Made by a program: the position numbers and the translations under genes
Shown here: positions 4,458 through 61,106 of the stretch, in pieces
Numbering within the stretch: position 1 is the stretch's first letter
How the letters are laid out: every line of letters begins with the position of its first letter
Assembly (NCBI GenBank): GCA_951406725.2
Contig: OX597821.1
Span: 61,504,001-61,568,000 of the forward strand
Origin: Octopus vulgaris
Taxonomy: Eukaryota
DNA length: 64,000 bases
Reading direction: 5' to 3'
Notes under the pieces: generated by a model
What the model was told of the DNA's origin: nothing
Seen by the model: the letters and a program-made list of their open reading frames with translations, nothing else
The model's database searches: none

Positions 4458-8590
<4,133 letters not shown>

Positions 8591-27800: not shown

Positions 27801-28647
27801 ACCTGAATTTAATGCATGACTGTATGTAGGATGTATTTGTCTCACAATATTTCTGAGGGTTGTTGTCATGCGGAGGAGTATTTGTATACTTTTGGCTGTA
27901 CAAATATTACATTATTGCTACTATATATATAATGATATGCCTTAGCTCAAGTCTTATAACATAGTTACAGTTTTGTTATGTCCTCTAGCGGATTTGAAAC
28001 ATTCGCTTTTATTGCGTAAGGCATAATTTAAAAGATTAAAAGTTATGCCTATATTGGTTATAACACCATATACGTTGTATTGCTATAGCCCTCTATAAAC
28101 ATTTCTTTAGAACTCCTAAGTTTATTCTTATTACTTTTCTGACTTAAGTTTTCTTACTGCCGTCGATATATCTTATAACTTTTAATTTTTAATTCAACTT
28201 CTTTCATCTTAAACTTTTAATTGATGTATCACTCTTTAATTATTTTGTACTTTTCACGTATATTTTTACCTCATGTATTTCTTATTTCTGTTCTAAATAA
28301 TACAGTGATATGTTTCTCGTCTTGGTGTATTTATTATGCTACATGTATTTACTATTTTGATGTGAATCATAACTATAGGATGATTATCTAAATTTTGTCT
28401 CTTCTTAAACCAAGTTATACCATACATATATATATATAGTGAGAATTTTCAAAAGTACAAAAAAAAAAAAAAGTCGAAGACACAGGCTAATGATAGAAAT
28501 TCGCAATAGTTGATTCAGCAGCATATTTTTATTTCTTTGGTGAGATGGATTATACTGAGGATGCATGCAGAGAAGTCGAACGACTATTCAGCAAAAAAGA
28601 ATGCTGCTGAAACAGTTGTTATGAATATTTAAAACCCACTTTTGTTG

Positions 28648-28695
<48 letters not shown>

Positions 28696-29562
28696 TGTGT
28701 GAAAAATTGGTAACCGGGGCAAAATTAGTATTTGTTGATTTTAGAGATATTATTCCCTACCTGTTTGAAAATTACATCGTGAGTATTGTATTATTATTTT
28801 GTATTGTTGCATCATCTTTGGGAGTAAAAATTGGTCAGCATAGTTGTCGTTGTTGAAACGGTCAGAAACAGTCAGGTGCCTGTTTGCTGAAGAAATTCCT
28901 CGTGAATAGCTCGATCAAAATTGAGGTTGCTAATAAAATATCTGGATAATTTAAGGTGTTTGGCAATCAACTTTATTTTTTCAATTGGATTCAAATTTTC
29001 CAGATTAATGTCAGATTTGATAATTTCCAAGTTTCAAAATGTAATGTTCAAACTGTCACAAGATGTGTAATTTCAGTATTTTCGCTCCTCTCTTTAAACA
29101 ACATGGTGCATAAATACACCAGGAAGAGAGCCATCCCAAGAAATCTTTAAGAAGCTATAGAAAATACTTCATATTCAGTTTTTAGATTTAGTCGAGTTTC
29201 GTTAAGTTCATACTATGTGCCATTTTTTCATGAACCTATTTCGATTTCACCTAGATATTTCAAATCTTTGTTGCATTTCTGATCTTTCTGATGTCTATTT
29301 TGGATATTGGTGTGTATGAGTTTTTTCTCAAATGTAATTTTGGAGAATTGAAGAGACACATTTACTATATCTCGTCTTACTCATTCAGATTACATCATAG
29401 TGTAGCTATAGTCTTTGTAATGTAGCCTAGCATTGGCAAAAAAAGTATATTTTGACTCAATGAGATACAGTAAATCTTATTCATTATGCTCCTCGTAAAT
29501 ATATATATTTGTGTGTGTGTGTGTGTGTATTTTTTCCGTTGCTTTTGAACCTTCCTGTTTCC

Positions 29563-29599
29563 TGTTTCTGAAGAAGAGCTTTAATCGAAACGTAAAACA
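29563..29599 (+). ncRNA. Minimal type I hammerhead motif (degenerate stem II)
   Basis: TGTTT CTGAAGA agagctttaatc GAAACGTA AAACA. Stem I is TGTTT/AAACA and the core is intact. It lies in a fragment ending at (TA)n (29668). Confidence 0.6.
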
Positions 29600-29659
29600 C
29601 CCTTTCTTTCTTTCCCTGGGTGTCTTATTTATACTCTCGCGTTCTTTTCTCTCCGTCTG

Positions 29660-29767
<108 letters not shown>

Positions 29768-29799
29768 TATATGCCTGGTGTATTTAGAAGACCTTACCC

Positions 29800-29978
29800 A
29801 GTGTGTTCCCCTCTCTACATGCCGAATGCAGTGCCTACTGCTATCTATGCGTGTGAAACGTGGACAAGCACAGCTAGGGTCAAATTGGACGTCTTCCATA
29901 GGCGATCAATTCGTGTTATACTTGAAATATGGTGGAAGGATTACACCACCAATGAGGAGATCACGCTGGCTTTGTAAA
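29800..29978 (+). mobile_element. RTE-like LINE fragment
   Basis: [45 protein letters not shown] is the typical post-RT region of RTE LINEs. Confidence 0.75.
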
Positions 29979-29979
29979 T

Positions 29980-31330
29980 AAGCCCTGGCTTGTTCAAAGC
30001 CACCATAGAGAGGGGATCTGCCTGCTAAAAAGGACAGAAAGGACCAGAAGAAGATAGATAAGGCCAACTCATAGTATGACAACAAAACAAACCAGAGTAT
30101 CGTGTTCGTTGGTGATACCCCTGGCGGCGAACTAGCATACCGTTTTAGAAAAGTAATAGATAAGGCTAATCTGTGGGTTAAAGTAGTAGAAAGATCTGGA
30201 GCGCCCATAATATCCTAATCGGTAGCCCCTTAAAGCCCTTGATCCATGTACGGAGAACAACTGTATTGTATGTAGGATGAATCTGCAGGTTAAGTTTAAG
30301 GTTAGGAATATAGTGTGTAGATTTTATGTACTGAGGACGGCGCAGAAACAAGACAATTACTTAGAGAGATAGCACGCAGTATAGGTGAACATATGGGCGG
30401 ACACTGGCGTGAACTCAAAGTTCGGAGAGGCTTGTCAGTGATCTGCCAAGTAGTTCATAGAGGCACGGTCAATAATATAGGAGTTAAGGTATCATAAACG
30501 CATAATATTGACACGACTCTAAGATAAATCACCGAGGCTATTCACATTGTAATAGACAGACCGAGCCTCAACATAAAACATATATGGAACAATAACTCCC
30601 ACCACCACACTACGCAACATGACGACTAAAGACAGAAGTAATACTCACACATTGTAATACACACACAATGGACAAAGCCATGATGAATATCGGAAATAGA
30701 GATAAATAGGTAAATACAAAAAAACTCCATAGTAAGCGAATCCATATACAAACATACATACCTTAACTTCAAAAACTGCTGAAATATCAACAACGCGACC
30801 ATCAACGACAACAGCAACAACGGCAACACCCTCCAGACCACCACCATCACTACTACCACCACCAACAACAACAAACATAACAATAAAAACAACAAGAGCA
30901 GCAGTAGCAATAACAACAATAGGTACCACAATGGCGGCAACGTATGCGAACGCACAAACACAGAGGGATAGAGGAACGGTACCAAAAGTCGGAGTCAAGG
31001 TCAGCAACATCGGTTACGGGGGAAGGGGACAGTATGAAAGGACAGTTGTAGTGCTACTAAGAACCACAGAACACTCTCACGCAAACACATACACACACAC
31101 CCACAAACACACACAAAGACAGATGCAAAAGTAGGCGCATGTAAGGATACACATCATAGAAGAACAGAATCGAGAAAGCGGAGCGGGAGCACACAGGATG
31201 AGGGGAAAGTTTCAATGAAGACGTCACGCATGTGTGACGAACGATGTCATGAATAGTAATAAACCAGTGAAGAACAGTAATAAACCAGTGAAGAACGAAT
31301 ATATAGTGCGTGTGTTTATTTGGCGCAAAA
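29980..31330 (+). mobile_element. Degenerate Penelope-like element 3' part (Neptune/Poseidon-like linker, GIY-YIG and tail)
   Basis: SIVFVGDTPGGELAYRFRKVI...VKVVERSG, REIARSIGEHMGGH and R*ITEAIHIVIDRPSLN. A decayed HHR lies at 31211-31253 (TTCA ATGAAGA cGTCACgcatgtGTGAC GAAC gat GTC aTGAA). Confidence 0.7.
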
Positions 31331-31411
31331 AAATGACTATACCGAAATATTACGATATCGGTTTCAACACACGGTTTCACTTCAGGAGTCTTTCAACACA
31401 AATTCATAAAC

Positions 31412-31450
<39 letters not shown>

Positions 31451-31519
31451 GGTCCCGGGTAAATAAGGTAAATAAGGTACTCAATACATAGCAGAGTAAA
31501 TTAATTTATTTTATAGAAG

Positions 31520-31572
31520 GAGCTTCTACAGGTCTAGAACTGTTTCATTCAAATGAAATCATCAGGAAGCTC
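31520..31572 (-). ncRNA. Type I hammerhead ribozyme (minus-strand copy)
   Basis: Minus strand reads GAGCTTC CTGATGA tTTCatttGAAt GAAA CAG ttctagac CTG TA GAAGCTC. Confidence 0.85.
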
Positions 31573-31574
31573 AT

Positions 31575-31627
31575 GAGCTTCCTGATGATTTCATTTGAAT
31601 GAAACAGTTCTAGTCCTGTAGAAGCTC
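31575..31627 (+). ncRNA. Type I hammerhead ribozyme (plus-strand copy)
   Basis: GAGCTTC CTGATGA tTTCatttGAAt GAAA CAG ttctagtc CTG TA GAAGCTC: 7-bp stem I, canonical CUGAUGA and GAAA core, GUA cleavage triplet. Confidence 0.85.
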
Positions 31628-31638
31628 CTTCTATATAA

Positions 31639-31720
<82 letters not shown>

Positions 31721-31832
31721 ATATATATATATATATATAAAATATTATTAGAGACAAAACCACTATTTTGCAAAACAAACAAGGGAAGACTTAATCAATA
31801 CATAAAATTTTAATAAATAGTAAAAAAAACCG

Positions 31833-31875
31833 CCACTACAATCGTTTCTTGTCTTGATCGACAATATTCAGGTGG
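31833..31875 (-). ncRNA. Minimal hammerhead-like motif (G8U variant)
   Basis: Mirror of 40038-40080. Confidence 0.6.
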
Positions 31876-32299
31876 ACTTCAATCTAAAATATCAATATTT
31901 TAAAATATACAAATAATAATTTTAAAATAATTAAAGTATGAATGAAAAAATATAAATATATAATCCATATATAACCTATATATAATCCATATATAATCAA
32001 TATATAAACAATATATAAACTAAAATAAACCTATCAACAATTAAATATAAAATATAAAATATAAAACAAAACAAAAAAATAATAATAATATAATAATAAA
32101 CTATATATACACCCATACACATATACCTAATTATATATAACCATATCTAACTACATACACTAAACCACACACCTATATATATATCCCTATACATATACAT
32201 AAAAACGTCTAGGCAACTATAAATAAATAAAATAGCTAAATACTTCAACACAATACTTATTCATACTCCCACACACACACACATACAACCCACATTCAC

Positions 32300-33940
32300 G
32301 CTCTAGAAAACGGACATCACTCAAAATTATGAACGGAGAAATGGAATAAATGGAATTAAAAATTATATTCACTTGGTAAAACGAACACTACTTAAAAATT
32401 ATGAATGAAACAATGCAATAAAACAACAGACATCGCAAATATACACAAATTACTACGAATTCCTTAACAAACCTACCATGATAAACCAAAACTCACAAAA
32501 ACATATAATGATAAAATCTCCCTTTACTAAACTCTATAACATACCTATATAGCAATCCCCCTAACCTAAACATTCACACACAAATACACACACGTAAACC
32601 ACACACCCACGACATATACAAATACCCACACCACTTACACATACCAATACATACATATAAACCTCAACATATACTCCAAAAACCCACTCAACCCCACACA
32701 GACAAATAAACACAAAAAAATATGAATGGATTCTTTTATAAAACTACCATGATAAGCTAAAACTCACAAAACAGAAATGATAAAACCTCCCTTTACTAAA
32801 CACTATAACATACTTATATAGCAATCCCTTTAACCTATACATTCACACACAAAAACACACACGTAAACCACACACCCATAACAAATACAAACACCCACCC
32901 CACTCACACACACCCACAAGTACATATAAGCCTCAACATATACACCAAACAAAATTACTTTACCAAGGAACTTAACATATGTATAAAAAGTATAACCGCT
33001 CCGGAAACGAACATCTCTAAATTAATGAATGGAGAAATGGAATAAATGGAATTAAAAATAATATTCACGTGGCAAAACGAACACCACTCAAAGATTATGA
33101 ATGAAACAATGCAATAAAACAACCAACATCGAAAATAAACAAATTACCACGAATTCCCTAAAAAAAACCATGATAAACCAAAACTCTTAAAAACATATAA
33201 CGATAAAATCTCCCTTTGCTAAACTCTATAACAAACCTATATAGCAATCCCCCTAACCTAAACATTCACACACAAATACACACACGTAAACCACAGACCC
33301 ACGACTTATACACATACCTATACTAACTTATAAACCTCAATATACACCAAAATCCACTCCCTCCACACACAGACAAATTAACACATACATCCCAAAACCT
33401 AAATAACAAACCCATATACACATTCACACACAAACACACACACAGGCAAAACACACACACACAACAGATACATATACTCCCTCACATATACGCATATACA
33501 TACTCACTAAACTCGATATATACAACAATATTTACACACCCACACTCATACAGATAAATAAATTATACAACTAAAAACTCACACACAATCTCATATACAT
33601 AAACACTCCTATGAAAACAACATTAAATACATCGTAATTAACCAGAATATCAAAAATAACAATATGACATAAGGATAAATAAAATACATACTTACAAGTC
33701 AGTTTCAAATTATAAAGTGAAATTAAATTCTTAGCCGTTAAAAAAATCAAACCAAAATTACGTTACCATAGAAATAACTTATGTAAAAAAAGAATACGCG
33801 TCATGGAAAGTAAACGTCATTTAAAATTATGAATGGAGAAAAAGAATAAATGGAACTAAAAACTATATCCACGTGGCAAACCAACACTACTTAAAAAAAT
33901 TTATTATGAATGGATTCTTTAAAAAACTACCATGAAAAAT
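32300..33940. repeat. Diverged tandem modules within the arm (C/A-rich strand)
   Basis: The module AAATTATGAA(C/T)GGAGAAA..GAATAAATGGAA occurs at ~32324, 33018 and 33824. The module ACCATGATAA...CTCCCTTT.CTAAAC.CTATAAC...ATAGCAATCCC occurs at ~32475, 32746 and 33167. Confidence 0.85.
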
Positions 33941-35363
33941 CATTATATACATTTATGAGCTTTAGCTCACCTTAGCAGCTCTAACAAACAACTTGCAGCA
34001 ACCCAAACCTATTCTCGATGCCTACCTCACTACTACACTATTCCACTCACAATTCCAAGCAACGCTAGTCCACCACCCGGTTACAATTCCCAACTCCACC
34101 CATTCATTCACAATTTCAACGACGTTCGCCTCCACAGCGCTACATATAAGCCTCAACATATACACCGGAGATTCACATCCGTGCGGATGGGTGAGAGTAT
34201 ACATTGAGTGTAGTGATGGGGCTCCCATTACTATACACATTTGTACCTGTGTGGTAGTCTCCATGTGTATATTCACGCACGGGTATAAATGCAGGGGGTA
34301 CACGCGCACGTCATTAGCGTGTACCCCCTCACATGTACATATGCATGCTATTTGGGCTCGATATATGCAACAATGTAATCGCGCCCGCATACATGCATAT
34401 GGGCGAGTTGCACAATCAAAAAACGCACACATGTGTGTGTGCGTTCCCTGGTTGTGCAATTCACCCATCTTGGTGTGAGTGGGTGTAAACGTATCGCTGT
34501 GGATGTCGAGCTTGATACGTATGTATATGAGTGTGTATTGGGGGGTTGTACGTATTTATTGTATGCATGTGCTTCACGCACGTGCGTCCATGTATGGATG
34601 AATATATTGGGATTGCTATGTGGGTGTAAATTGGGTATGGAGGGGGGAGTTTTGTCATTGTATGGGTGTGGGTTTCATATGTGATGGTGGTTAGTTGGTA
34701 ATTTTTGGTATGTTCTGTATATTTGGGTTAGTTATGTATTATTCTAGTGTGTATAATTGTATACACAATTTTTGGGGATGTATGTGTTTATTTATCCATA
34801 TGGGGCGGGAGTGGCCGTTAGGTGTATATGTTGAGGCTCACATGCAATTCCAGGTACAGCGAATGAAGTGGGCACTTACATTTGTTATGGGTGTGTGTAC
34901 TTTATTATAACAGACAATACCCAAATAAAATCTGTCAATTCAACATACCAAATAAAAAACAAAAAACAAAGGGATCATAAACATTCACACATACATACAA
35001 AACTCAATAAAAACACCACTAAATAACACCCATCAACATATAAATATATCCTCCAAAATACATATAGCAAATGCATTATAAAAATACATAATAAAATAAA
35101 ATAAAAATAAAAAAATAAAAAAATAAAAAAAATAAAAAATAAAAAAATATATAAATAAAGAAAATAAAAAAATCTAATCTAAATTATTAAAGTTTTAACA
35201 TACCATATACTGTTAAAATAATATACATTAAAAATGAACTAATTAAAACAAAGAAATATCAATAAAGACTAACTATAATTAAATCCTAGACAACATAACC
35301 AAAAATATATTATCTAAACTAATTTAAACTAAACTAAAGTAACCTAAAAGGGAACTATTATTG

Positions 35364-37233
35364 CTATTTATCATGAAACTTATTATATAGGTAAAGTAAC
35401 TTATGTCTGCATTTTATTTTGCGCTCTTCACCAGTATTAAGTAAATTATCATACTTATAAAATAAAATTTCTTTAAACTCATTAGAGCATAAATAACAAC
35501 AATTAGCTCCTATAGTATATGATTTAGTTTTACAAATTATTTCCCAAATTAAACTATAATTAATATTTAGTGATTTAAGACTCCAAATGTACTTACTAAG
35601 TCCGGTTGAGTTGATTAAGTTTTTATTTTTAAAAGAATTCATATGTTGTGCGATTCTTAGTTTTATTTTTGAGGAAGTAGAACCTATATAAACCGCTTTT
35701 GTGTAATTATTATTCTTAAAGTTATTATCATGTAATGTAACTATACATTTATACACTACATCGTTAATATCACAATTATTGTTTAATATACAATTAGATT
35801 TATCTCTACATGTACAATTAATATAAGTCTTATCATTATTAATATTATTATCAAATAATTTCTTTTTATAAAAATTATTCAGTTTATATTTATTAAATAA
35901 AGAAATAATGTTACCAACATTATTAGTGGTAGAGTAACCAACTCCAAAATTATTAAAAGAGAAAATGTTTCTATATTTACGATTATCTCTAATAAATAGT
36001 TCTATAACATCTAAAATCTCTTTAATAATATTCGTTTTTACTTGATCTCCATAAGGAACTATTAACCAAATTTTATTCTTATTAACCTTATTATTATTAT
36101 CATTATTATAAATATTTTTATTTTATTAAAATTATTATCAGAATTATATCTATGTACAGCATTTAAGGAATTATTAATATTATTAAATTTATCAATATAA
36201 TTATAATAATTATTAAATTTATTTTTATTTTTATTATTCTTATTTATATTATTATTATTATATTTATTATTATTATTATTATTCTTATTTATATTTTTAT
36301 CATTTTTTATAATTATTATTAGAAGTATCTCGAAAATTAACAATTAAATCTTTATCACTAATATTATAAAATTTAATATTCCTATTATAACCTGCCCCTC
36401 TAAGGGCCTCATTATAATATTTAGCATGTTTATTAAAAATCTCTATATCATAAGAGAGTAATGAAATACGTTTACTTATATTATTAATCAACGATTTTTT
36501 AATAGAAAATGGGTGATTACTATTAACATTTATATATCTAAGGTTCTCATTAAGTTTATGATATGGTTGTGTTTTACCTGTAATAAGATTAAAATTAACA
36601 TCTAAATAATTAACATTATAATTCTCCTTATATATAGTAATACTTAAACCATATCTTTTAAAGAAACTATATAGTTTTTTCTTATATACTTCTAGATTCC
36701 TATTAGTACAATTCTTTGTAACTAGTAGAAGATCGTATCTATATAAACCACCCTCTATCTTAAGATTTTCTAATTGGAGTTCAGATAAAAGAAAAATACC
36801 TACTAAATCAGTAGCCTGTGCAGAATCTGGTGCTCCCATAGGTATATCAAAAAAATCTCTAGTATCATTCCTAGCCCATAATTTATTTTTATATTTAATT
36901 AGCGATTTCCTAGCCATTTTAATTACATTAACTTCTTCCCGTGACATACCCACTTTATTCATTGCGAAAATAAGCGCTTTATTAAACACAATTTCATTAA
37001 TAGAAGAATAATAATTATCTATATCTATTTGAATAAATTTATAACGATTTTTATCTTTAATATTATTAAACCATTTCAATGTATTATTATTACTAAACCA
37101 TAATTTAAAATAATTAAGTTTATTTAACTTATCAATATATTTATCTAAAATAAATTTACTTAATTTACCTAGGTCCGATTAACATGGGCAAATTAATCTA
37201 ACTTTAGGGTCTGAATAAAAATTATCTTTATGG
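35364..37233 (-). pseudogene. Naiad-type PLE reverse transcriptase-GIY-YIG ORF, disrupted and 5'-truncated
   Basis: RT: HKDNFYSDPKVRLICPC*SDLGKLSK, FIQIDIDNYYSSI, IPMGAPDSAQATDLVG, LYRYD (for YRDD), NYLDV, YINVNSNHP. Linker: IWLIVPYGDQVKTNI...VGYSTTNN. Endonuclease: NCTCRDKSNCILNNNC..DVVYKC...VYIGST...R..QH...STGLSKYIW...CYLCSNE...LLN...KCRH. It has one stop (~37180) and two compensating frameshifts in an Asn-rich tract. Confidence 0.9.
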
Positions 37234-40177
37234 TATGAAACCCACACCCATACAATGACAAAACTCCCCCCTCCATACCCAATTTACACCCACATAGCAA
37301 TCCCAATATATTCATCCATACATGGACGCACGTGCGTGAAGCACATGCATACAATAAATACGTACAACCCCCCAATACACACTCATATACATACGTATCA
37401 AGCTCGACATCCACAGCGATACGTTTACACCCACTCACACCAAGATGGGTGAATTGCACAACCAGGGAACGCACACACACATGTGTGCGTTTTTTGATTG
37501 TGCAACTCGCCCATATGCATGTATGCGGGCGCGATTACATTGTTGCATATATCGAGCCCAAATAGCATGCATATGTACATGTGAGGGGGTACACGCTAAT
37601 GACGTGCGCGTGTACCCCCTGCATTTATACCCGTGCGTGAATATACACATGGAGACTACCACACAGGTACAAATGTGTATAGTAATGGGAGCCCCATCAC
37701 TACACTCAATGTATACTCTCACCCATCCGCACGGATGTGAATCTCCGGTGTATATGTTGAGGCTTATATGTAGCGCTGTGGAGGCGAACGTCGTTGAAAT
37801 TGTGAATGAATGGGTGGAGTTGGGAATTGTAACCGGGTGGTGGACTAGCGTTGCTTGGAATTGTGAGTGGAATAGTGTAGTAGTGAGGTAGGCATCGAGA
37901 ATAGGTTTGGGTTGCTGCAAGTTGTTTGTTAGAGCTGCTAAGGTGAGCTAAAGCTCATAAATGTATATAATGATTTTTCATGGTAGTTTTTTAAAGAATC
38001 CATTCATAATAAATTTTTTTAAGTAGTGTTGGTTTGCCACGTGGATATAGTTTTTAGTTCCATTTATTCTTTTTCTCCATTCATAATTTTAAATGACGTT
38101 TACTTTCCATGACGCGTATTCTTTTTTTACATAAGTTATTTCTATGGTAACGTAATTTTGGTTTGATTTTTTTAACGGCTAAGAATTTAATTTCACTTTA
38201 TAATTTGAAACTGACTTGTAAGTATGTATTTTATTTATCCTTATGTCATATTGTTATTTTTGATATTCTGGTTAATTACGATGTATTTAATGTTGTTTTC
38301 ATAGGAGTGTTTATGTATATGAGATTGTGTGTGAGTTTTTAGTTGTATAATTTATTTATCTGTATGAGTGTGGGTGTGTAAATATTGTTGTATATATCGA
38401 GTTTAGTGAGTATGTATATGCGTATATGTGAGGGAGTATATGTATCTGTTGTGTGTGTGTGTTTTGCCTGTGTGTGTGTTTGTGTGTGAATGTGTATATG
38501 GGTTTGTTATTTAGGTTTTGGGATGTATGTGTTAATTTGTCTGTGTGTGGAGGGAGTGGATTTTGGTGTATATTGAGGTTTATAAGTTAGTATAGGTATG
38601 TGTATAAGTCGTGGGTCTGTGGTTTACGTGTGTGTATTTGTGTGTGAATGTTTAGGTTAGGGGGATTGCTATATAGGTTTGTTATAGAGTTTAGCAAAGG
38701 GAGATTTTATCGTTATATGTTTTTAAGAGTTTTGGTTTATCATGGTTTTTTTTAGGGAATTCGTGGTAATTTGTCTATTTTCGATGTTGGTTGTTTTATT
38801 GCATTGTTTCATTCATAATTTTTGAGTGGTGTTCGTTTTGCCACGTGAATATTATTTTTAATTCCATTTATTCCATTTCTCCATTCATTAATTTAGAGAT
38901 GTTCGTTTCCGGAGCGGTTATACTTTTTATACATATGTTAAGTTCCTTGGTAAAGTAATTTTGTTTGGTGTATATGTTGAGGCTTATATGTACTTGTGGG
39001 TGTGTGTGAGTGGGGTGGGTGTTTGTATTTGTTATGGGTGTGTGGTTTACGTGTGTGTTTTTGTGTGTGAATGTATAGGTTAAAGGGATTGCTATATAAG
39101 TATGTTATAGTGTTTAGTAAAGGGAGGTTTTATCATTTCTGTTTTGTGAGTTTTAGCTTATCATGGTAGTTTTATAAAAGAATCCATTCATATTTTTTTG
39201 TGTTTATTTGTCTGTGTGGGGTTGAGTGGGTTTTTGGAGTATATGTTGAGGTTTATATGTATGTATTGGTATGTGTAAGTGGTGTGGGTATTTGTATATG
39301 TCGTGGGTGTGTGGTTTACGTGTGTGTATTTGTGTGTGAATGTTTAGGTTAGGGGGATTGCTATATAGGTATGTTATAGAGTTTAGTAAAGGGAGATTTT
39401 ATCATTATATGTTTTTGTGAGTTTTGGTTTATCATGGTAGGTTTGTTAAGGAATTCGTAGTAATTTGTGTATATTTGCGATGTCTGTTGTTTTATTGCAT
39501 TGTTTCATTCATAATTTTTAAGTAGTGTTCGTTTTACCAAGTGAATATAATTTTTAATTCCATTTATTCCATTTCTCCGTTCATAATTTTGAGTGATGTC
39601 CGTTTTCTAGAGCGTGAATGTGGGTTGTATGTGTGTGTGTGTGGGAGTATGAATAAGTATTGTGTTGAAGTATTTAGCTATTTTATTTATTTATAGTTGC
39701 CTAGACGTTTTTATGTGTATGTATAGGGATATATATATAGGTGTGTGGTTTAGTGTATGTAGTTAGATATGGTTATATATAATTAGGTATATGTGTATGG
39801 GTGTATATATAGTTTATTATTATATTATTATTATTTTTTTGTTTTGTTTTATATTTTATATTTTATATTTAATTGTTGATAGGTTTATTTTAGTTTATAT
39901 ATTGTTTATATATTGATTATATATGGATTATATATAGGTTATATATGGATTATATATTTATATTTTTTCATTCATACTTTAATTATTTTAAAATTATTAT
40001 TTGTATATTTTAAAATATTGATATTTTAGATTGAAGTCCACCTGAATATTGTCGATCAAGACAAGAAACGATTGTAGTGGCGGTTTTTTTGACTATTTAT
40101 TAAAATTTTATGTATTGATTAAGTCTTTCCTTGTTTGTTTTGCAAAATAGTGGTTTTGTCTCTAATAATATTTTATA
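37234..40177. repeat. Right arm of the 2944-bp inverted repeat
   Basis: Reverse complement of 31736-34679, followed by ~80 bp of unpaired tail before (TTA)n(TA)n. Confidence 0.97.
40038..40080 (+). ncRNA. Minimal hammerhead-like motif (G8U variant)
   Basis: CCAC CTGAATA TTGTCgatcaaGACAA GAAA C gatt GTA GTGG. Stems I and II pair perfectly and stem III is minimal. The core is CUGAAUA instead of CUGANGA. Confidence 0.65.
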
Positions 40178-40252
40178 ATATTTTACTATAAAATTGGATT
40201 TAATCCTAAATCTGATTTTTTTCCCTGTAAATTTGGATTTATTCCCTAATAT

Positions 40253-40311
<59 letters not shown>

Positions 40312-41156
40312 ACGGCTTTAACAAATGACCTGTTTTAAATTGTTACTGAACAATGTAGAGACCATTGAACTTACACTTACCCCATTGTGGACCATAGGCG
40401 GTTTCTTGGTATTAATTTCCTGTGAGTTAATTTTTTTCTTTAGTAATCTACGTTAATTCGTTTACCTTCATTTAAGTTTTCTCCGTTAACATACGTTTGA
40501 ACTTTGACTTTTATGTTTGTATTTCCTTTACAACTTGATAACTTATTTTTTATAACACCCTGACACCCACTCCTAACTGCTTTCTCCCGTTAATAATTTT
40601 AGTTTTCCTTAGTCCTTTAATAGCTCGCTCTCACACCTACGCTCTTTGAAACCTGATGTGCATTTAACATACTAGGCTTCTAGACTTATTGCCGAAGACA
40701 TGTTTTCCTTTCTTTTTCCTTCTTCCGCCTGTTTATACTGTATGCTCTTCTTTTTTCACTTTGAAGATCTGTTGCCTTAATTCGAATGCCCCATGAAAGT
40801 GAATAATTTTATTCTCGCATTTATGTGTAGACTGCATTAAGGTATTTTGTTTAGCAACAGCCGTTTGTTACGTCATGCATTGTATCAATAAATATGATTT
40901 AAATTGTTGTCCTATCGATCAGCTGGTTAATCTATGTTTTTCTCTACTTTGTAATTATTTGCATTGGTCCCTGATAAATTTTGTTTAATATATATTAATT
41001 TGAGTTATATTTTTTGTATCTAAATATGTTGATACGACAGAAACGATCGTCGGCTTATAAAGGGAATTCAACAATTAAAGATGTGATATTTTCTATCTGT
41101 ACTTTTGTTATATAATATATATATATACATACGTGCATACATAACACACACACACA

Positions 41157-41227
<71 letters not shown>

Positions 41228-41241
41228 GTATATATATAAAC

Positions 41242-41272
<31 letters not shown>

Positions 41273-41954
41273 TATACATATAGATATAAAACTTACTTGG
41301 AAGAGAATGGGTGAAGTTCAATCATATAATAATATGAATTATATATATGAATATATACATACGTATATGTGCATACTTACATCTATGCGTATATATAATA
41401 TATATATATATATATTTGTGTGTGTGTGTGTGTGTGCATATGTGGGCACATGAGGTCACGAAGGGTGTACAACAAAAATGTACATGGAACGTGAACAACG
41501 AAATACGCAAATGGAAAGCAAAGCAAACGACATAAAAAATTACCCTTCTGGCTGTTTTTCTAGTCTCGTATTTCGAGTATTTAACAACACTATACGCTTC
41601 CGATAAAATAGCTGCTCCAGAAAGCAAATTACATAAAATTTGTGATTTTGCAGAGGGTCAAAATAGGTAACACAAAAAGGATAGTGAAAACAAACAGGGA
41701 GGGCTGCTAAGCCTAAACGTAGTTGTGTTGGCGAACGCATAAATCAAGCTAGGACAGAAGGTTGTCCGCTTTAACAATTATATATCCGCGATATCGGAAA
41801 TCTGCAATAGCTCCATTACTATCATCTCGGCTGCAAACTTGGAGACTTATTAATCCGTAAAAGCACTTTCCTAGCGTATCTAATTGTTTAGGTCAGCAGT
41901 GAACTACCCCGCCATACTTTGTGTGTATATATAAATAGTTATAATTTATATAAA

Positions 41955-42130
41955 AACTAAAGACAGGTGTATGAACAACAAACAAGTGTATTATTTTGAC
42001 GCTCAGGAAAACTGAAAAAAGTCTTATACGTTTCGAGCCTACTCTATTCAACAGATAGGAATAAGAGAAAATAAACAAAGACAGAATTTAAAAAAAACTT
42101 GTAGATTCCAGCGGTCCAGCATGGCGAATG
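41955..42130 (-). mobile_element. Copy of the ~190-bp HHR-like pLTR family
   Basis: Minus strand reads CTGTTGA ATAGagtaggCTC GAAACGTA. It is colinear with 13971-14160. Confidence 0.65.
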
Positions 42131-42322
42131 CGTTGATATGTGTATATAGCTTTAGTAAATTGCGATAAATATCATGAAGAAAAATAGTATAATCTTTGAA
42201 GGTATTGCCTGAAGATCTATTAGAAAGAACTTGTCAAATGTGTCACATAGTGGCACCATGTGGTTGGGAAAGAAACGTTTTACCACACACCCATATATAT
42301 ATATTATAATATATTATAATTA

Positions 42323-42477
42323 ATATCAGAAAATCAAGATTAGAAAATTCTTCAGAAAGATATATACGTGTGTAAAATAATTGTTGTATTAAATATATAT
42401 ATATATATATATATTTAATACAGCAATAATATTACACACGTATATATCTTTCTGAAGAATTTTCTAATATTGATTTC

Positions 42478-42484
<7 letters not shown>
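42323..42484. repeat. Imperfect palindrome with ~70-bp arms centred on (TA)n
   Basis: ATTAGAAAATTCTTCAGAAAGATATATACGTGTGTAA pairs with TTACACACGTATATATCTTTCTGAAGAATTTTCTAAT. Confidence 0.9.
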
Positions 42485-42525
<41 letters not shown>

Positions 42526-42648
42526 ATATAGAGGGCATTATTATACATACATGCCACCCGCTAAGAGGGACAAAATTAGTCATTTCTACCAAAAATTTTA
42601 CTAATCCCACCGAATGCAATTTTTCAAAGTAAGACATTTAAAAATATG

Positions 42649-42695
42649 GACTTGTATCACCTGTGATTTCATACCTCTGTATTCATCAGCAAGTC
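42649..42695 (-). ncRNA. Type I hammerhead ribozyme (minus-strand copy)
   Basis: Exact mirror of 43106-43152. Confidence 0.88.
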
Positions 42696-43105
42696 TGGAC
42701 GTATTATAAATAAACGACCCTACATCGTCAAAGCCGGGCAGCCAACTGGCCAACATCAACGACGCACATGGGTTAGTTTACATATATTACATCCGGTAAA
42801 TGGCAAACTTTTACGAATTGCATTTCGGGAAAGGAAAAGTTTTTTCGGAATAAAAATTTATTCTCTTATGAGGTTTTTCACGCTATCTACCCGATAATTT
42901 CTTGTTAAGTTTTCCTTATTAAGAAGTTGTCCTTAATTGCTAAATTTTTATTCCGAAAAAACTTTTCCTTTCCCGAAATGCAATTCGTAAAAGTTTGCCA
43001 TTTACCGGATGTAATATATGTAAACTAACCCATGTGCGTCGTTGATGTTGGCCAGTTGGCTGCCCGGCTTTGACGATGTAGGGTCGTTTATTTATAATAC
43101 GTCCA

Positions 43106-43152
43106 GACTTGCTGATGAATACAGAGGTATGAAATCACAGGTGATACAAGTC
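43106..43152 (+). ncRNA. Type I hammerhead ribozyme
   Basis: GACTTG CTGATGA ATACagagGTAT GAAA TCACagGTGA TA CAAGTC. All three stems pair, the core is canonical, and the cleavage triplet is AUA. Confidence 0.9.
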
Positions 43153-43383
43153 CATATTTTTAAATGTCTTACTTTGAAAAATTGCATTCGGTGGGATTAG
43201 TAAAATGTTTGGTAGAAATGACTAATTTTACCCTCTTAGCGTGTGGCATGTATCTATATATAAATTTAATATGTTCAATAAGAAAGAATTATTTTCGAAA
43301 TTTTTTCTCTTATGAGGTTTTTCACGCTATCTACCCGATAATTTCTTGTTAAGTTTTCCTTATTAAGAAGTTGTCCTTAATTG

Positions 43384-43427
<44 letters not shown>

Positions 43428-43429
<2 letters not shown>

Positions 43430-44453
43430 TAGCATTAAAGACCCGTTGTTGCCGGGTCATAGTGCTAGTGTATGTATATATGTGTATATATGTGTGTACA
43501 TATTACATGTACATCTATATATATACATCTACACATAAAATACAAAATACAAAGTTATATCTTGATATCGCTAGTGATAACAATACTCAAAATATATAAA
43601 AGACCGGAATTGTTAGCCCGTCTCATGTAATTTCGATGAATTGTATCTTGTCCTCCCTCTTGTATAGAAGTGTGGCTACAATCCAGCCTACGTCTACTTC
43701 GGTGGGGGGGACATTTTAATTTTTTTCCGGGACGTCCTACGTCCCAGATATGAAGGTGTAAATAAAATATTTCCACTTTGCAAGTTCGAGTCGAGTACTC
43801 CCTTGCACGCTCCGTTGACTCGAACCTTGCTTCTATTGTGGCGAATTTACCGACTCTGATTAGATATCTTTCATAGTCGCACCAAGTCACTTATAGAAGT
43901 TGCTTTCCTCCATGTGTTCAAATCTTCTTTTTTCTCTACATTGTATACTTTATAGACAATAGTCTTTTCTTTAATTTAATTTTTTTATTATCCATCTGGA
44001 CTATTCCATTTCTGCACGCTAATTTTATATTTAATTTATTCCCATTCATTTGAAACCACTTATTCAAGTTCAAGTCATTGATGCAATTTTATACCTATTT
44101 TTACTGTTGTTATGTTACGATTATATTATACTTTAGTTTGATTTTAATTATTACTTACTACATATAATTCAATTGTTATTATTTTTATTATTAAAGTGAA
44201 AGTATCTGACATAAAATAGAGAAATGTTTTTGTTTCACTTTTAACACGTAATACTGAAATAGTGGAGAAGATATGATATTGCTATGGGCTCGCTCTAGGC
44301 AAGAAGTTGAACATTTTTTTTGCCCATGAAACTACATGGACCCTAAGTAAGGCATGTGTAAAATTTGAATGAAATTGGTTGTGTAGTTCTCAAGTGTTAG
44401 GGAAACACACAGACAGACAGACAGACACATTCTCAGTTTTATATATATAAAGA
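43428..44453 (+). mobile_element. Possible non-autonomous Helitron/Helentron-associated (HINE-like) element
   Basis: It starts CTAGCA..GACCCGTTGTTGCCGGGTC (hairpin) and ends (CAGA)n...TTTTATATATATAAAGAT, a pattern I recall from such elements. No Rep/helicase motif was seen. Confidence 0.4.
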
Positions 44454-44525
44454 TATGACCTCGTGTGTACCGTTGGCGATTTGTTTCCCTCTGTCTTCCC
44501 TTCGCGGGATCTTTCCTTCTCCTAT

Positions 44526-44560
44526 GTTTCCGACGAAGAGCTCCGCTCGAAACGTTAAAC
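44526..44560 (+). ncRNA. Minimal type I hammerhead motif with a loop-less palindromic stem III
   Basis: GTTT CCGACGA A GAGCtccGCTC GAAACGTT AAAC, with the AACGTT palindrome. It lies within a ~200-bp fragment (44457-44660) ending at (TA)n. Confidence 0.7.
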
Positions 44561-44655
44561 CTTCCTTCTTCCCTTCTTTCCTGAGCGTCCAATAATACTA
44601 TATTTGTTCCATGTCCTCGCGTTGTTGTGTTTTTTGTGTTTTCTTGTTTGGATTA

Positions 44656-44719
<64 letters not shown>

Positions 44720-45049
44720 CATACATACATATATATATATATATCTTCATATATCGAATGGTAGTTTTTTTAAAAATATGATGTAATATGATAAAATGGT
44801 GTTTGTTTGAAATATAAACTAAAACTTGAAATTTACTGCTTTTGATTTTGGTAAGTACACTTTAGTATGAGACTCTTTAAATTCATATATGTTTCTTTGG
44901 TAAGTCTTCTGTAATAATCCATAATAGCTATGTGTAAAATCCGTTATATTTTCCTGTATTCCCAATATAGTTCATAGACTTAGATAATATATATATATAT
45001 ACATACATGTGTGCGTGTTTGCGCGCGCGCACGCGCGCGCGTGTGTGTG

Positions 45050-45245
45050 TGTATTCGGCATAATAGATCGCTAGCCACTACACATTTTTATTTTCTCTCC
45101 TTGTTTCTTTCTGTGTTCCTTTCTGTGGAAGAGTATAGGCTTGAAACGGTAAAGAATTTTTCACTTCCCAAGCATTATACTAACGCATCTGTTTGTTGTA
45201 TATACCACCTGTCTTCGTCTTTTGTTTTTTTGTGATTTCTCCCTA
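45050..45245 (+). mobile_element. Copy of the ~190-bp HHR-like pLTR family
   Basis: CTTT CTGTGGA A GAGtataggCTT GAAACGGT AAAG ... CACCTGTCTTCGTCTTTTG. Confidence 0.6.
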
Positions 45246-46704
45246 TATATATGTGTGTGCGTGTGTGTGCATCGGTGTGTTTTTGTGTATGTATATGCGT
45301 AGTTATGTTTATGTTTGCATGCATACGTATATGTATATAGCTTTTGGAAGTTGTGATAAATGTCATGAAGAATACAATACCAGTATAATTCATGAAAGTA
45401 TTACACGGGTAGCATGTATTTCTTAAAAGAAATATATATGTAATCGCCTCATTGTTTGAACATGGTTTGATTAATATATTTTCGACTTAGCAGGGGAATT
45501 TTACGATCCTAGACGTTCTCCGTTCAACGATAATAGTCGGAATCGATAGAAGTTATTAATCGTCGACAATAAAGTATATATATATTCTGAAAATCACTTG
45601 TTATTTCCTATTTCTATTAATCATAGCGAGCAAAAGGGAATATGGAAAAGTTTAGCACTAACTTATTACTGACACACAGAAATTATTTTACCCTCGATAT
45701 TTTCTAAAGCGCGCTAATAAAAACATGCTGTGTAATATATTTGGCCTTGTGTCGTGGTCACTTGGAAGTCATAAAATCTTAGTAATATATAAGTAGCGTA
45801 ATGGTGGAAGGCAAAAACCAATATTACATTCATATAATACTTTTTTATCATTGATACTTTGGGAAGTTCTGAAAACTGTATATAAAATTGTCAGTGTAAT
45901 GTTTAGTGGACAGAACGATCAGTGGCATTTAATAAGTTATTACATGTTTCCTGTCTAAATAATTCTGCCTAATGACAAGTGTTATTACATATCTGAAAAT
46001 ATTTAAGCATTATCATCTATCGGCAATCGAATGATTTGTAATCGGAATTCACGTAGGGGTTTCCATGATCAAAGATTCATTTAGTTTAATTACAGTACTA
46101 CCCTGTCTCTATATGAAAATATTGTTAAAAATATAAACTAATTCAATATTCACATATACGGCGATATACATGTGTCTTCGTTGCGTATTATTTTCAATTC
46201 TCACATCCCTATTTCAGTAACGTCTACTGGTACGTAGTATTCAAAGTTTTAGAATTAATTATTTTATGTAGGTCCATTATTTACAATATGTATATGAACA
46301 ACATCTTTTATATTTTAGCACTGTAGCACGTATATCTTTGTGAGCCTAACAGCGAAATATATAGGAAAAAGAAAACATCAAACGAACGTGACATTTCTAT
46401 ATTTGTTAATGCCATTTTACTGGTTGTGTTTATTAGATTATTTCATATTGTTTATAATATTTATATCTACTTTGATCACACAACCCTGTATGCTTTTGCA
46501 TTTGTGCATGTCTAGAATCTTTCATATCTTTTCATAAGAAATTCTACTGTTTTATGTCGTGTCTTATAGTATAATCAATATTATGACTAGATTGGATTTT
46601 TGTATATTTAAAATAATCGAGGTCTCCTGTTCCACATTTGGCTGCTAATATAAACATACTTGCATACGTACATGCATACAAACACATATGTACATGTTTT
46701 ATAA

Positions 46705-57039: not shown

Positions 57040-57070
<31 letters not shown>

Positions 57071-57203
57071 GCGTTAGACAATATACCAGAAATCCCTAGT
57101 TTTGTCGGGACGTTCTGAGTCTGCGCAGTGATCTGATTAGTTAGAGAGAGCAAATCATTAGAAGCACATGCTTCTAGTGAGTTAGGATCTCAGAACAACA
57201 GGG

Positions 57204-57277
57204 CTCTTACCGATGAATTCTCCCTGAGCAAATAAATTATCTTTATTGCTGAAAAGAACGAAACTGCAGTCTAAGAG
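57204..57277 (+). ncRNA. Type I hammerhead with extended stem II (copy 1)
   Basis: CTCTTA CCGATGA aTTCT..AGCAAATAAA ttatc TTTATTGCT..AGAAc GAAA C tgca GTC TAAGAG. U4C core variant, palindromic ACTGCAGT stem III, GUC triplet. Confidence 0.8.
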
Positions 57278-57600
57278 GAACCGAGTTAGTAAATGTTTTT
57301 ATTTTCATTTCACTAAATTTATCTAGCTTCTGTGTTTCTATCACATATTTCGCCTTAATGTACTGATATATGAATAATATATGGCTTGTGCTAGAAATAC
57401 CAGCGATAATAATTAATTTTATTTTATCACAATTTGAATTGTTTACATATTTCTCGATAAATTTTGAGCGTTAGACAATATACCAGAAATCCCTAGTTTT
57501 GTCGGGACGTTCTGAGTCTGCGCAGTGATCTGATTAGTTAGAGAGAGCAAATCATTAGAAGCACATGCTTCTAGTGAGTTAGGATCCCAGAACAACAGGG

Positions 57601-57674
57601 CTCTTACCGATGAATTCTCCCTGAGCAAATAAATTATCTTTATTGCTGAAAAGAACGAAACTGCAGTCTAAGAG
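57601..57674 (+). ncRNA. Type I hammerhead with extended stem II (copy 2)
   Basis: Identical to 57204-57277. Confidence 0.8.
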
Positions 57675-57837
57675 GAACCGAGTTAGTAAATGTTTTTATT
57701 TTCATTTCACTAAATTTATCTAGCTTCTGTGTTTCTAGCACATATTTCGCCTTAATGTACTGATATATGAATAATATATGGCTTGTGCTAGAAATACCAG
57801 CGATAATAATTAATTTTATTTTATCGCAATTTGACTT

Positions 57838-57888
<51 letters not shown>

Positions 57889-59542: not shown

Positions 59543-61048
59543 CATATATAATAATGGGTTCAAATATATAGAAATCACTCATACAAGGAACGTTTTATTC
59601 TATGCACACACAACACATTCTCAGTACATAAGAAGCAACCTGGTAAATTACTGTAATCATTAAAATAAACTGAATTTGCAAAAACCTATTTCAGCTGTCA
59701 GAATTAATTTTTTCCTAAAGGACTTTATTTTTATAAACTTTTATATATCTCCACCTCGACACATAACACATCCACCTAAGCTCAAAGCTATTCCTGTCGG
59801 TAAAATCCCGGAATTTCATTCCTTTCAGAACTTTTATTTTTCAATTTATCCATCAATGTGAGGCACCGTTCGATGGTTTCCATACATAGGATTTTTAGTT
59901 CAATATTTGCACGCTATTATCCACGACTTTCTCCGACTTATACCATTTAAAAGGACAGATTTTCGACTGGTTCCTAGTGTGGTCAATATGAACCGGTGCC
60001 CAGGTCCAATGTAATGTCGTTCGTTAACAAAGCCTCCTGTCACCCACGAAGGGTTTTAGAGTAAGGATTCAAATCTTGTGCTCAAGTATTGAAATCTTGA
60101 TTCCCCCCTCAGATCCTATTACAATGAGATTTTTGGTGTCCAGTTGGTTTAAAAACCGCATCTTCTATGTTCTCGTCCTAACACTCACTAAAAGGGAAAT
60201 CATTGGCATGTCGTTTGGCTTTCCCTACCATTTACGCTCAATGTCAAGACTTGCGTGGGGAGGATATTCTTTAGATTCGTGGACAAGCAGTTCACACAGT
60301 CACACATATACGGATGGTGGTTTAACAGACACTAATTAAGTCCCTCCTTCAGTTGTGCACCTAGCGTTGAAAAGTATTACTGAGCAGACCTAAACCACGT
60401 GCAAAGGTTGGATGTATATGCAGGGTTGAAATGAGTACTCAGTGGAAGTGGGGTTTCGATGCAACACAGAGAGTGTCCTCTGTGAAGCTGAGGAAGTGGT
60501 TGACACTGGTGACTGCAGAGTCAGTGACATCAATATTAGCAACTGCATCAACAACAATAACGACACCAAGAACACAGCCACCAATAAAATCAACAACCAC
60601 TGAAATTGCACGAAAAAATGTAACTCCAAAGAGAATGTAAAAAACATATTTTTCAGTTAATCCTAAACTCGAGTTTCTGTATTAATGCACAAATAAATCG
60701 ATTTGTCATCTCTTCTTCATCAGTGGGATCGCTTAAGACATATAATTATGTAGCAAATACACACTAAAATACCACGTATGCTGCATACTTATACATTTAC
60801 GTTTTCAATTCAACCGCGTAAGGGCAATTATATAGTCAGCAGCACAGTTGGGACTCCTTAATAGTGCCTTTTTGATAATATTCTTTCGTAATCGCCTCTT
60901 TTATGTATAAATACTCTACACTTTATATATGAAAATATGCAGTCTGTTGAGTTTTATTACGCATGCTAGCCACCGGTATGGAATTTTTCTAAATTTTCTA
61001 CTCTTATAATTTTCACAACACACACAAACACGTACACACACACTCATG

Positions 61049-61106
<58 letters not shown>

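What the first reader, a model, noticed from the sequence alone, without database searches (positions are those of the whole stretch)
31736..40260. 8.4-kb palindromic Naiad retroelement with 2.9-kb near-identical arms
Seen: the RT is cut at 37233, exactly where an inverted copy of the last 2944 bp begins. Both HHR-bearing 3' ends point outward into (TA)n, there is no net indel between arms, and about 3.6 kb of non-coding, strand-skewed, repetitive sequence follows the stop codon. Known: PLEs often have inverted 5' pLTRs, usually a few hundred bp. Inference: this one is unusually long, mimics a TIR transposon, and would yield about 3 kb of dsRNA if transcribed through.
Basis: partly seen in the sequence, partly recalled or inferred. 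Interest (0 to 1): 0.75.

Follow-up and report, generated by a model that had tools for sequence, protein, structure and literature searches.

The report
Head-to-head Hydra-type Penelope retroelement insertion
This is a broken copy of a Penelope-like jumping gene of the Hydra group (not Naiad) with a mirror-image second copy of its tail end attached, a layout already known for these elements; the arms are long likely because the family carries an unusually long (3.7 kb) non-coding end.

Summary
The inverted repeat is real in the assembly: 2,944-bp arms, 5 substitutions, no indels, reverse transcriptase (RT) cut at the inner junction, (TA)n flanks. The label is wrong. The endonuclease is C-terminal, lacks CCHH, has CxCX5C, CxxC and CxH motifs, and a type I hammerhead motif sits near each 3' end. 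That is the Hydra clade; Naiads have an N-terminal endonuclease and no canonical hammerhead. An inverted 5'-truncated copy at the 5' end, with a tail at one end only, is the standard Penelope-like layout and is recorded for a Hydra family (966-bp arm). Two more such cassettes lie within 3 kb, and this scan noted the pattern before on other DNA of this genome. The copy is dead: stop codon, YRDD to YRYD, two frameshifts, hammerhead G8 to U. Most likely two cDNAs from one donor were primed at opposite target strands and joined; later arm-to-arm conversion is the main rival. What is unusual is the 3.7-kb repetitive 3' region (27 published Hydra families are 3,045 bp or shorter). No read was seen to span the junction; dsRNA is untested.

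The parts
31639..31739 (.). (ATCT)n(TA)n microsatellite, left flank / target
31736..34679 (-). Left arm: 3' region of the main copy, ending at the 'short' end (no tail); 31736-31739 may equally be target (TA)n
31833..31875 (-). Type I minimal hammerhead motif, core CUGAAUA (G8 replaced by U), near-palindromic stem III
   Evidence: layout compared by eye with File S2 of PMC8557442
32308..33938 (-). Two to three diverged direct repeats about 700-800 nt apart inside the 3' region
   Evidence: score 507 against shuffle maximum 45 for the best pair
34280..34620 (-). GC-richer patch predicted to fold into several hairpins (mirrored in the right arm)
   Evidence: z = -6.9, 0 of 100 shuffles fold as well
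34434..34897 (-). Old, degenerate inverted copies of the upstream repeat motifs; strand skew flips here
   Evidence: scores 56-59 against shuffle maxima 24-37
34680..35363 (-). Proximal 3' non-coding region, present once (part of the spacer)
35364..36122 (-). C-terminal part of the ORF: linker CxCX5C, GIY-YIG-type endonuclease without CCHH, CxxC and CxH motifs, stop at 35364-35366
36123..36302 (-). Asparagine-rich low-complexity insert, out of frame in this copy (two compensating frameshifts)
   Evidence: similar inserts in octopod relatives P0011, P0023
36303..37233 (-). 5'-truncated RT; in-frame TAA at 37179-37181; YRDD motif reads YRYD (36737)
37234..40177 (+). Right arm: inverted, 5'-truncated second copy of the 3' region
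40038..40080 (+). Hammerhead motif, identical to the left one
40178..40265 (+). One-sided tail ('long' end), about 83-88 nt, family sequence
   Evidence: depth at 40215-40216 of the same order as at 40102 in 4 of 4 runs: about equal in X1, higher in X2 and X3, about half in X5
40266..40308 (.). (TA)21, right flank / target

Best explanation
This is a defective copy of a high-copy Hydra-clade Penelope-like retroelement that was likely inserted in one event in which both strands of a (TA)n target primed reverse transcription on RNA from one donor, giving a 5.5-kb and a 3.0-kb cDNA whose truncated ends were joined head to head. Shown: anatomy, clade motifs, unequal ends, lesions, shared variant letters in both arms. 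Inferred: (a) a GIY-YIG/RT complex, probably supplied in trans by an intact family member, nicked both strands; (b) one cDNA started at the long end and the other 83 nt inside it, like the two RT start sites that make the PLE tail; (c) the overlap of 2.9 kb needs two sibling RNAs, a tandem RNA or re-copying of one RNA; (d) the ends were joined over at most 1 nt of microhomology; (e) 5 differences in 2,944 nt mean a young insertion, roughly 0.2 million years. The structure has no function of its own; read-through would give a long hairpin RNA.
For: Clade motifs and domain order (PMC8557442). Inverted 5'-truncated copy plus one-sided tail is the published PLE layout. A purified PLE protein cuts and extends both target strands and starts RT at two sites that bound the tail (PMC11167929; Poseidon clade, not Hydra). 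The right arm holds 83 nt the left lacks and the flanks differ, so it is not a copy of the left arm alone. 8 of 8 arm sites I picked where most family depth has another letter carry the same letter in both arms, so the arms share one source. All 30 bins have depth in 4 of 4 runs, with the element orders of magnitude deeper than the unique flank at 40409-40775; ORF and proximal non-coding bins are of similar depth and depth rises toward the 3' end. 2 of 2 other head-to-head cassettes in the window also have a tail on one side.
Against: No read or contig was seen across 37233/37234. The copy looks about 1% diverged from common family alleles (best run holds 0.65 of sampled words; about 1.4% by arithmetic) and has four ORF lesions, against 0.17% between arms, so a young insertion needs an already dead donor, which I could not look for (no genome held). 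All 5 arm differences lie in the outer 1,403 nt (P = 0.025 for an inner gap this long, 0.15 for the longest gap anywhere; post hoc). Base 34679, the last of the left arm, differs from the family letter in 4 of 4 runs and matches the junction base 37234, which is predicted to belong to the ORF (68 of 72 relatives with the pattern have KD before HK). These points fit later arm-to-arm copying. The tail (83 nt) is longer than the published 30-40 nt.
Confidence: 0.55

Rival explanations
1. Same PLE head-to-head insertion, but old: it decayed in place (about 1%, a few million years) and the arms were made alike afterwards by intrachromatid gene conversion between inverted repeats.
For: Family-discordant letters occur at similar density in arms (8 sites, 2 of them also common in runs X2 or X5) and spacer (7 sites) among the 40 of 197 rows shown. 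Inner 1,541 nt of the arms are identical; base 34679 looks like a 1-nt overrun of copying from the junction. The ORF lesions fit neutral decay. Several of the copy's letters were not seen in any of 4 runs, which argues against a large sibling subfamily. An earlier AI note (e1-8666025) reached this reading for a 35-kb palindrome in the same genome; not tested here.
Against: A single dead donor gives the same densities. Contigs drop rare variants, so absence of the letters proves nothing. Near-complete conversion of 2.9 kb is needed. The 34679 hint is one base and can be 1-nt microhomology.
Confidence: 0.3
2. Assembly or polishing artefact: a fold-back chimera, a mis-join of two loci, or real but more diverged arms made alike by read mis-mapping during polishing.
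For: No spanning read seen; very high-copy family; published warning that such structures trouble assemblies; two frameshifts lie in A-rich runs.
Against: A fold-back chimera would mirror the flank too and could not add 83 nt of true family end on one side; arms differ at 5 sites and share letters that differ from the family majority, the opposite of polishing toward consensus; the layout equals the known PLE one and recurs twice nearby.
Confidence: 0.09
3. Fold-back synthesis: one cDNA switched onto itself at the truncation point and copied its own 3' region backwards (self-priming, as proposed for Adineta Penelope).
For: Would give identical arms from one template; self-priming is proposed in PMC3846280.
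Against: No palindrome at the junction (2,554-nt spacer); copying the left arm cannot supply the 83-nt tail unless the left end lost it later.
Confidence: 0.04
4. A unit that moves as DNA through its long inverted ends (TIR or foldback-like transposon).
For: Shape only: 2.9-kb terminal inverted repeats.
Against: Ends are unequal, carry hammerheads and sit in (TA)n; the spacer encodes RT and GIY-YIG only; the junction is a 5' truncation inside the RT.
Confidence: 0.02

Closest known systems
Hydra clade of C-terminal EN+ Penelope-like elements, e.g. Hydra-1_Obim and Penelope-13_HM (Craig et al. 2021, PMC8557442; read: parts 1-6 of 10 of the text, passages, supplement part 2 of 59 and two term searches)
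   Same: RT then C-terminal GIY-YIG; CxCX5C linker; CxxC and CxH; no CCHH; no IFD (64 residues from motif A to motif B against 65 in Hydra-1_Obim, counted by eye); hammerhead near the 3' end; (TA)n target; Penelope-13_HM has a 966-bp inverted 5'-truncated copy.
   Different: A different family from Hydra-1_Obim; 3.7-kb repetitive 3' region and an inferred full length above 6 kb, against 1,080-3,045 bp for 27 of 27 listed families; asparagine-rich insert; 83-nt tail.
Canonical PLE insertion layout: Adineta vaga Penelope families (Arkhipova et al. 2013, PMC3846280; read: passages and part 2 of 5)
   Same: Inverted 5' copy, optional tail on one side, dead copies bounded by inverted repeats, N-rich inserts in the ORF, a 0.9-1.5-kb spacer before the 3' repeat in Pen1_Av.
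   Different: Arms there are about 180-220 bp; here 2,944 bp. No direct (tandem) pLTR and no junction palindrome here; no TSD can be read in (TA)n.
Naiad clade (PMC8557442)
   Same: PLE, GIY-YIG endonuclease, (TA)n preference, inverted structures, present in octopods.
   Different: Naiads have an N-terminal EN with CCHH, usually an IFD, and no canonical hammerhead; this element shows the opposite on every point that could be tested.
Poseidon_Ac in vitro mechanism (Frangieh et al. 2024, PMC11167929; read: parts 1-2 of 4)
   Same: Both target strands cut and extended; two RT start sites give short and long ends; AT-rich target.
   Different: Other clade; start sites 30-40 nt apart inside the ORF 5' part; the joining step of an inverted insertion was not shown there.

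Membership tests
Naiad | GIY-YIG endonuclease N-terminal to RT | tested here: not met
   EN follows RT on the same strand; 0 of 36 relatives of 650 aa or more matched my N-terminal GIY-YIG pattern, 27 of 36 a C-terminal YIG-type pattern
Naiad | CCHH motif with two cysteines between GIY and YIG | tested here: not met
   One cysteine only between VVYK and YIG
Naiad | No canonical hammerhead | tested here: not met
   Canonically ordered type I motif with three stems, one core mismatch
Naiad | IFD, about 20 extra residues between RT motifs A and B (absent in some Naiads) | tested here: not met
   64 residues against 65 in Hydra-1_Obim (counted by eye)
Naiad | DKA and CxC motifs upstream of RT | not testable with these tools
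   Region lost by 5' truncation; 32 of 36 long relatives have DKT or DKS instead
Hydra | Single ORF, RT then C-terminal GIY-YIG | tested here: met
   (broken in this copy)
Hydra | CxCX5C linker | tested here: met
   CTCRDKSNC
Hydra | No CCHH; CxxC and CxH around the conserved E and N | tested here: met
   CYLCSNE and CRH
Hydra | RWK and DKT motifs in the N-terminal part | not testable with these tools
   Truncated in this copy; among 36 long relatives 21 match R[WF][KR] and 32 DK[TS]
Hydra | Canonical hammerhead near the 3' end | tested here: inconclusive
   Stems and position fit, but the core has U for G8 in both arms; the family letter was not among the rows shown; cleavage untested
Hydra | Insertion in (TA)n | tested here: met
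Hydra | Generally short (under 3 kb); descriptive, not diagnostic | tested here: not met
   Main copy 5.5 kb although truncated; 27 of 27 listed families are 3,045 bp or less
Hydra | RT phylogeny with named Hydra references | not tested
   No named reference sequences were available to the tree tools; placement rests on motifs and by-eye colinearity with Hydra-1_Obim
TIR / foldback DNA transposon | Equal inverted termini, TSD, transposase or recurrence as a unit | tested here: not met
   Ends differ by 83 nt; spacer encodes RT-EN; TSD unreadable in (TA)n; recurrence not testable

The most novel reading that the evidence does not exclude
An octopod lineage of Hydra-clade elements has grown a 3.7-kb 3' region by recycling its own tandem and inverted insertion products, so that routine head-to-head insertions form kilobase palindromes; these are kept near-identical by arm-to-arm conversion long after the element dies and act as standing sources of long dsRNA for ADAR editing or small-RNA silencing.
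Probability: 0.15. Interest if true: 0.5.

Novelty: new member of a known kind. Interest (0 to 1): 0.23.

Why it matters
As it stands it adds one long-tailed octopod family to the Hydra clade and corrects a label. It is a clean example for a question the field calls open (how PLEs form tandem and inverted structures, PMC8557442): unequal ends with a 2.9-kb overlap rule out simple L1-type twin priming on non-overlapping parts of one RNA (L1 model recalled, from no call) and disfavour cDNA fold-back. With the whole assembly, one search for the copy's lesions would separate a dead donor mobilised in trans from post-insertion conversion. It does not reveal a new kind of element.

Tried and rejected
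No genome is held for this window, so other copies, donor and arm-length distribution could not be mapped. Rfam at E up to 1 over 28,000-46,000 gave 56 matches, none at gathering score and no hammerhead family; the motif was found with my own descriptor. Minimum-energy folding of the 66-nt motif did not give the hammerhead fold (z 0.5-0.7), as expected of a weak minimal motif but no support either. Pfam found no RT or GIY-YIG family in the two ORF pieces; a homolog search with the EN piece among longer proteins found 0 of 5,330 candidates; the EN was identified by tblastn with P0001-P0005. ADAR hyper-editing, suggested by earlier notes: among 15 family-discordant sites that I took from the 40 of 197 rows shown, 5 are A to G on the sense strand, 4 A to T, 3 C to T, 3 other; not a hyper-editing pattern. 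I dropped the other rows as flank sites, mirror duplicates or minority variants. Likeness of the post-stop T-rich stretch to the pre-hammerhead stretch is not above shuffles (84 against maximum 91). Look-ups of earlier findings by sequence, by nearness and by words were empty. Paper searches showed no description of a Hydra family with a multi-kb 3' region or of kb-long Hydra arms; the library lacks most subscription papers and Repbase, and I read only part of the Craig supplement, so this is weak.
Full report
Observation. The longest inverted repeat in the window has arms 31736-34679 and 37234-40177, 2,944 nt each, 2,554 nt apart, with 5 substitutions and no indel. The left end abuts (ATCT)n(TA)n; the right arm continues for about 83 nt of non-mirrored sequence before (TA)21. 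A strict three-stem hammerhead descriptor hit 4 places in 64 kb, two of them near the outer ends of this element, and none in 20 shuffles. Both copies have U at core position 8; C3-G8 pairing is needed for cleavage in another PLE hammerhead (PMC11167929), so this copy's ribozyme is predicted to be impaired. From the stop at 35364 to the left end there are 3,628 nt with strong strand skew, two to three direct repeats 700-800 nt apart, old inverted remnants of the same motifs, and a 340-nt patch that folds far better than shuffles.

What it encodes. [quoted passage not shown] Relatives are 700-900-aa proteins aligned from about residue 185-215 onward; the best is 49% identical. Among the 8 close relatives looked up, 4 carry names, all from octopods (Octopus sinensis, O. 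bimaculoides, Argonauta hians), which agrees with an earlier AI note that the genome is an octopus; the host is therefore inferred, not shown. The copy has an in-frame TAA and YRYD for YRDD; family contigs carry the other letter at both sites (4 of 4 and 3 of 3 runs with cover).

Clade. Craig et al. 2021 (PMC8557442) define Naiads by an N-terminal EN with CCHH, usually an IFD, and no canonical hammerhead, and Hydra by a C-terminal EN without CCHH, a CxCX5C linker, CxxC and CxH motifs, a canonical hammerhead and (TA)n targets. This element has CTCRDKSNC, CYLCSNE, CRH, no cysteine pair inside GIY-YIG, and a motif A-B distance of 64 against 65 in Hydra-1_Obim. Of 36 relatives of 650 aa or more, 33 have the linker pattern, 33 CxxC, 30 CxH, 32 DKT or DKS and none an N-terminal GIY-YIG pattern. 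It is a Hydra-type element and not a Naiad. No tree with named references was built.

Family context. Contigs of four public runs cover every bin of the element at depths far above the unique right flank; ORF and proximal non-coding bins are alike and depth climbs toward the 3' end, the profile of a high-copy, 5'-truncated retroelement. Summed contig depth is not a copy number. Listed pieces and joints link positions from 35221 down to 31880 in other copies, some skipping whole repeat units (803, 821, 1,503 nt), so the long 3' region is likely a family trait of variable length. No listed contig bridges the stop codon itself, so the link to the ORF in other copies is inferred from depth. All 27 Hydra families in the published table are 3,045 bp or shorter. 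A recent Octopus vulgaris annotation lists 336 recently active PLE insertions covering 1.83 Mb, about 5.4 kb each (PMC13282606, passages), so multi-kb PLE insertions are not rare in octopus.

Is the layout new? No. An inverted 5'-truncated copy at the 5' end and a tail on one side are described as typical of PLEs, and Penelope-13_HM of the Hydra clade has a 966-bp inverted copy. The same window holds two smaller head-to-head cassettes with hammerhead-core motifs and one-sided tails, at 31449-31640 and 42531-43384. Earlier AI notes report the same pattern elsewhere in this genome.

Mechanism. Both arms share 8 of 8 tested letters that differ from most family depth, so they come from one source, not from two random copies. 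The right arm holds 83 nt that the left lacks and there is no palindrome at the junction, which disfavours fold-back copying. A PLE protein cuts and extends both target strands and starts at two sites that bound the tail (PMC11167929). The simplest model is two cDNAs, one from each start site, primed at opposite strands of (TA)n and joined at their truncated ends. Five differences in 2,944 nt give about 0.24 million years at the rate implied in PMC13282606 (0.09 per 25 million years; my arithmetic, rough). Because the copy is dead and about 1% diverged, this needs a defective donor moved in trans. The alternative is an old insertion with converted arms. Two weak hints favour it: the inner 1,541 nt are identical (P 0.025 to 0.15, post hoc), and base 34679 differs from the family in 4 of 4 runs while matching junction base 37234, predicted to be ORF-derived because 68 of 72 relatives with the pattern have KD before HK. 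I put 0.55 on the young insertion, 0.30 on conversion, 0.09 on artefact, 0.04 on fold-back and 0.02 on a DNA-mobile unit; the first two share the same origin.

Limits. No read across the inner junction or the whole structure was seen; no empty allele; no RNA data; no genome for copy mapping. Papers seen: PMC8557442 (parts 1-6 of 10, passages, supplement part 2 of 59 and two term searches; unread parts hold the consensus sequences), PMC3846280 (passages, part 2 of 5), PMC11167929 (parts 1-2 of 4), PMC4209133, PMC13282606 and 10.64898/2026.07.22.740005 (passages only; supplements not seen).

Verdict. A real but ordinary PLE insertion type, mislabelled by clade; mildly interesting for the long 3' region of the family and the mismatch between a dead ORF and near-identical arms. 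Interest 0.23.

Noticed in passing
window 31449-31640: Small head-to-head palindrome directly left of the element: 67-nt arms (1 mismatch) around a perfect centre at 31573/31574, CTGATGA...GAAAC hammerhead-core motifs on both strands (not passed by my strict descriptor), and a roughly 58-nt tail on one side, between microsatellites.
   Followed up: partly
window 42531-43384: Second head-to-head cassette in (TA)n: 322-nt arms 98.8% alike, intact CTGATGA hammerheads at 42689 (minus) and 43112 (plus), a unit of about 444 nt with a partial tandem copy of 80-91 nt and a one-sided tail; retrozyme-like.
   Followed up: partly
window 34280-34620 and its mirror 37293-37633: GC-richer patch predicted to form several strong hairpins (z = -6.9); some family contigs skip it (joint 34176-34774). 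May be a captured element or a structured RNA module.
   Followed up: partly
window 34679 and 37234: The last base of the left arm differs from the family letter in 4 of 4 runs and matches the junction base: 1-nt microhomology or a footprint of arm-to-arm copying.
   Followed up: partly
window 31810 / 40103: Three contigs in run X1 join these mirror positions at a short local palindrome, which may mean other copies with very short head-to-head arms (table 5; one run, 23 letters on the short side).
   Followed up: no
window 57060-57847: Two tandem 397-nt units, 97% alike, between (TA)n tracts, with a CTGAAAAG...GAAAC core-like motif; possible retrozyme or pLTR pair.
   Followed up: no
window 60180-60482: Short fragment with weak similarity (E 1e-5 to 1e-7) to the linker region of Hydra-type proteins, upstream of (TA)n at 61049.
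   Followed up: no
window 6067-8491: Non-LTR retrotransposon remnant: RVT_1 (E 5e-31) and weak zf-RVT in two consecutive frames.
   Followed up: no
P0011, P0023: Octopus proteins annotated as 'GATA zinc finger domain-containing protein 14-like' and 'putative uncharacterized protein DDB_G0282133' are fragments of this retroelement group, named for their asparagine-rich insert (inferred).
   Followed up: partly
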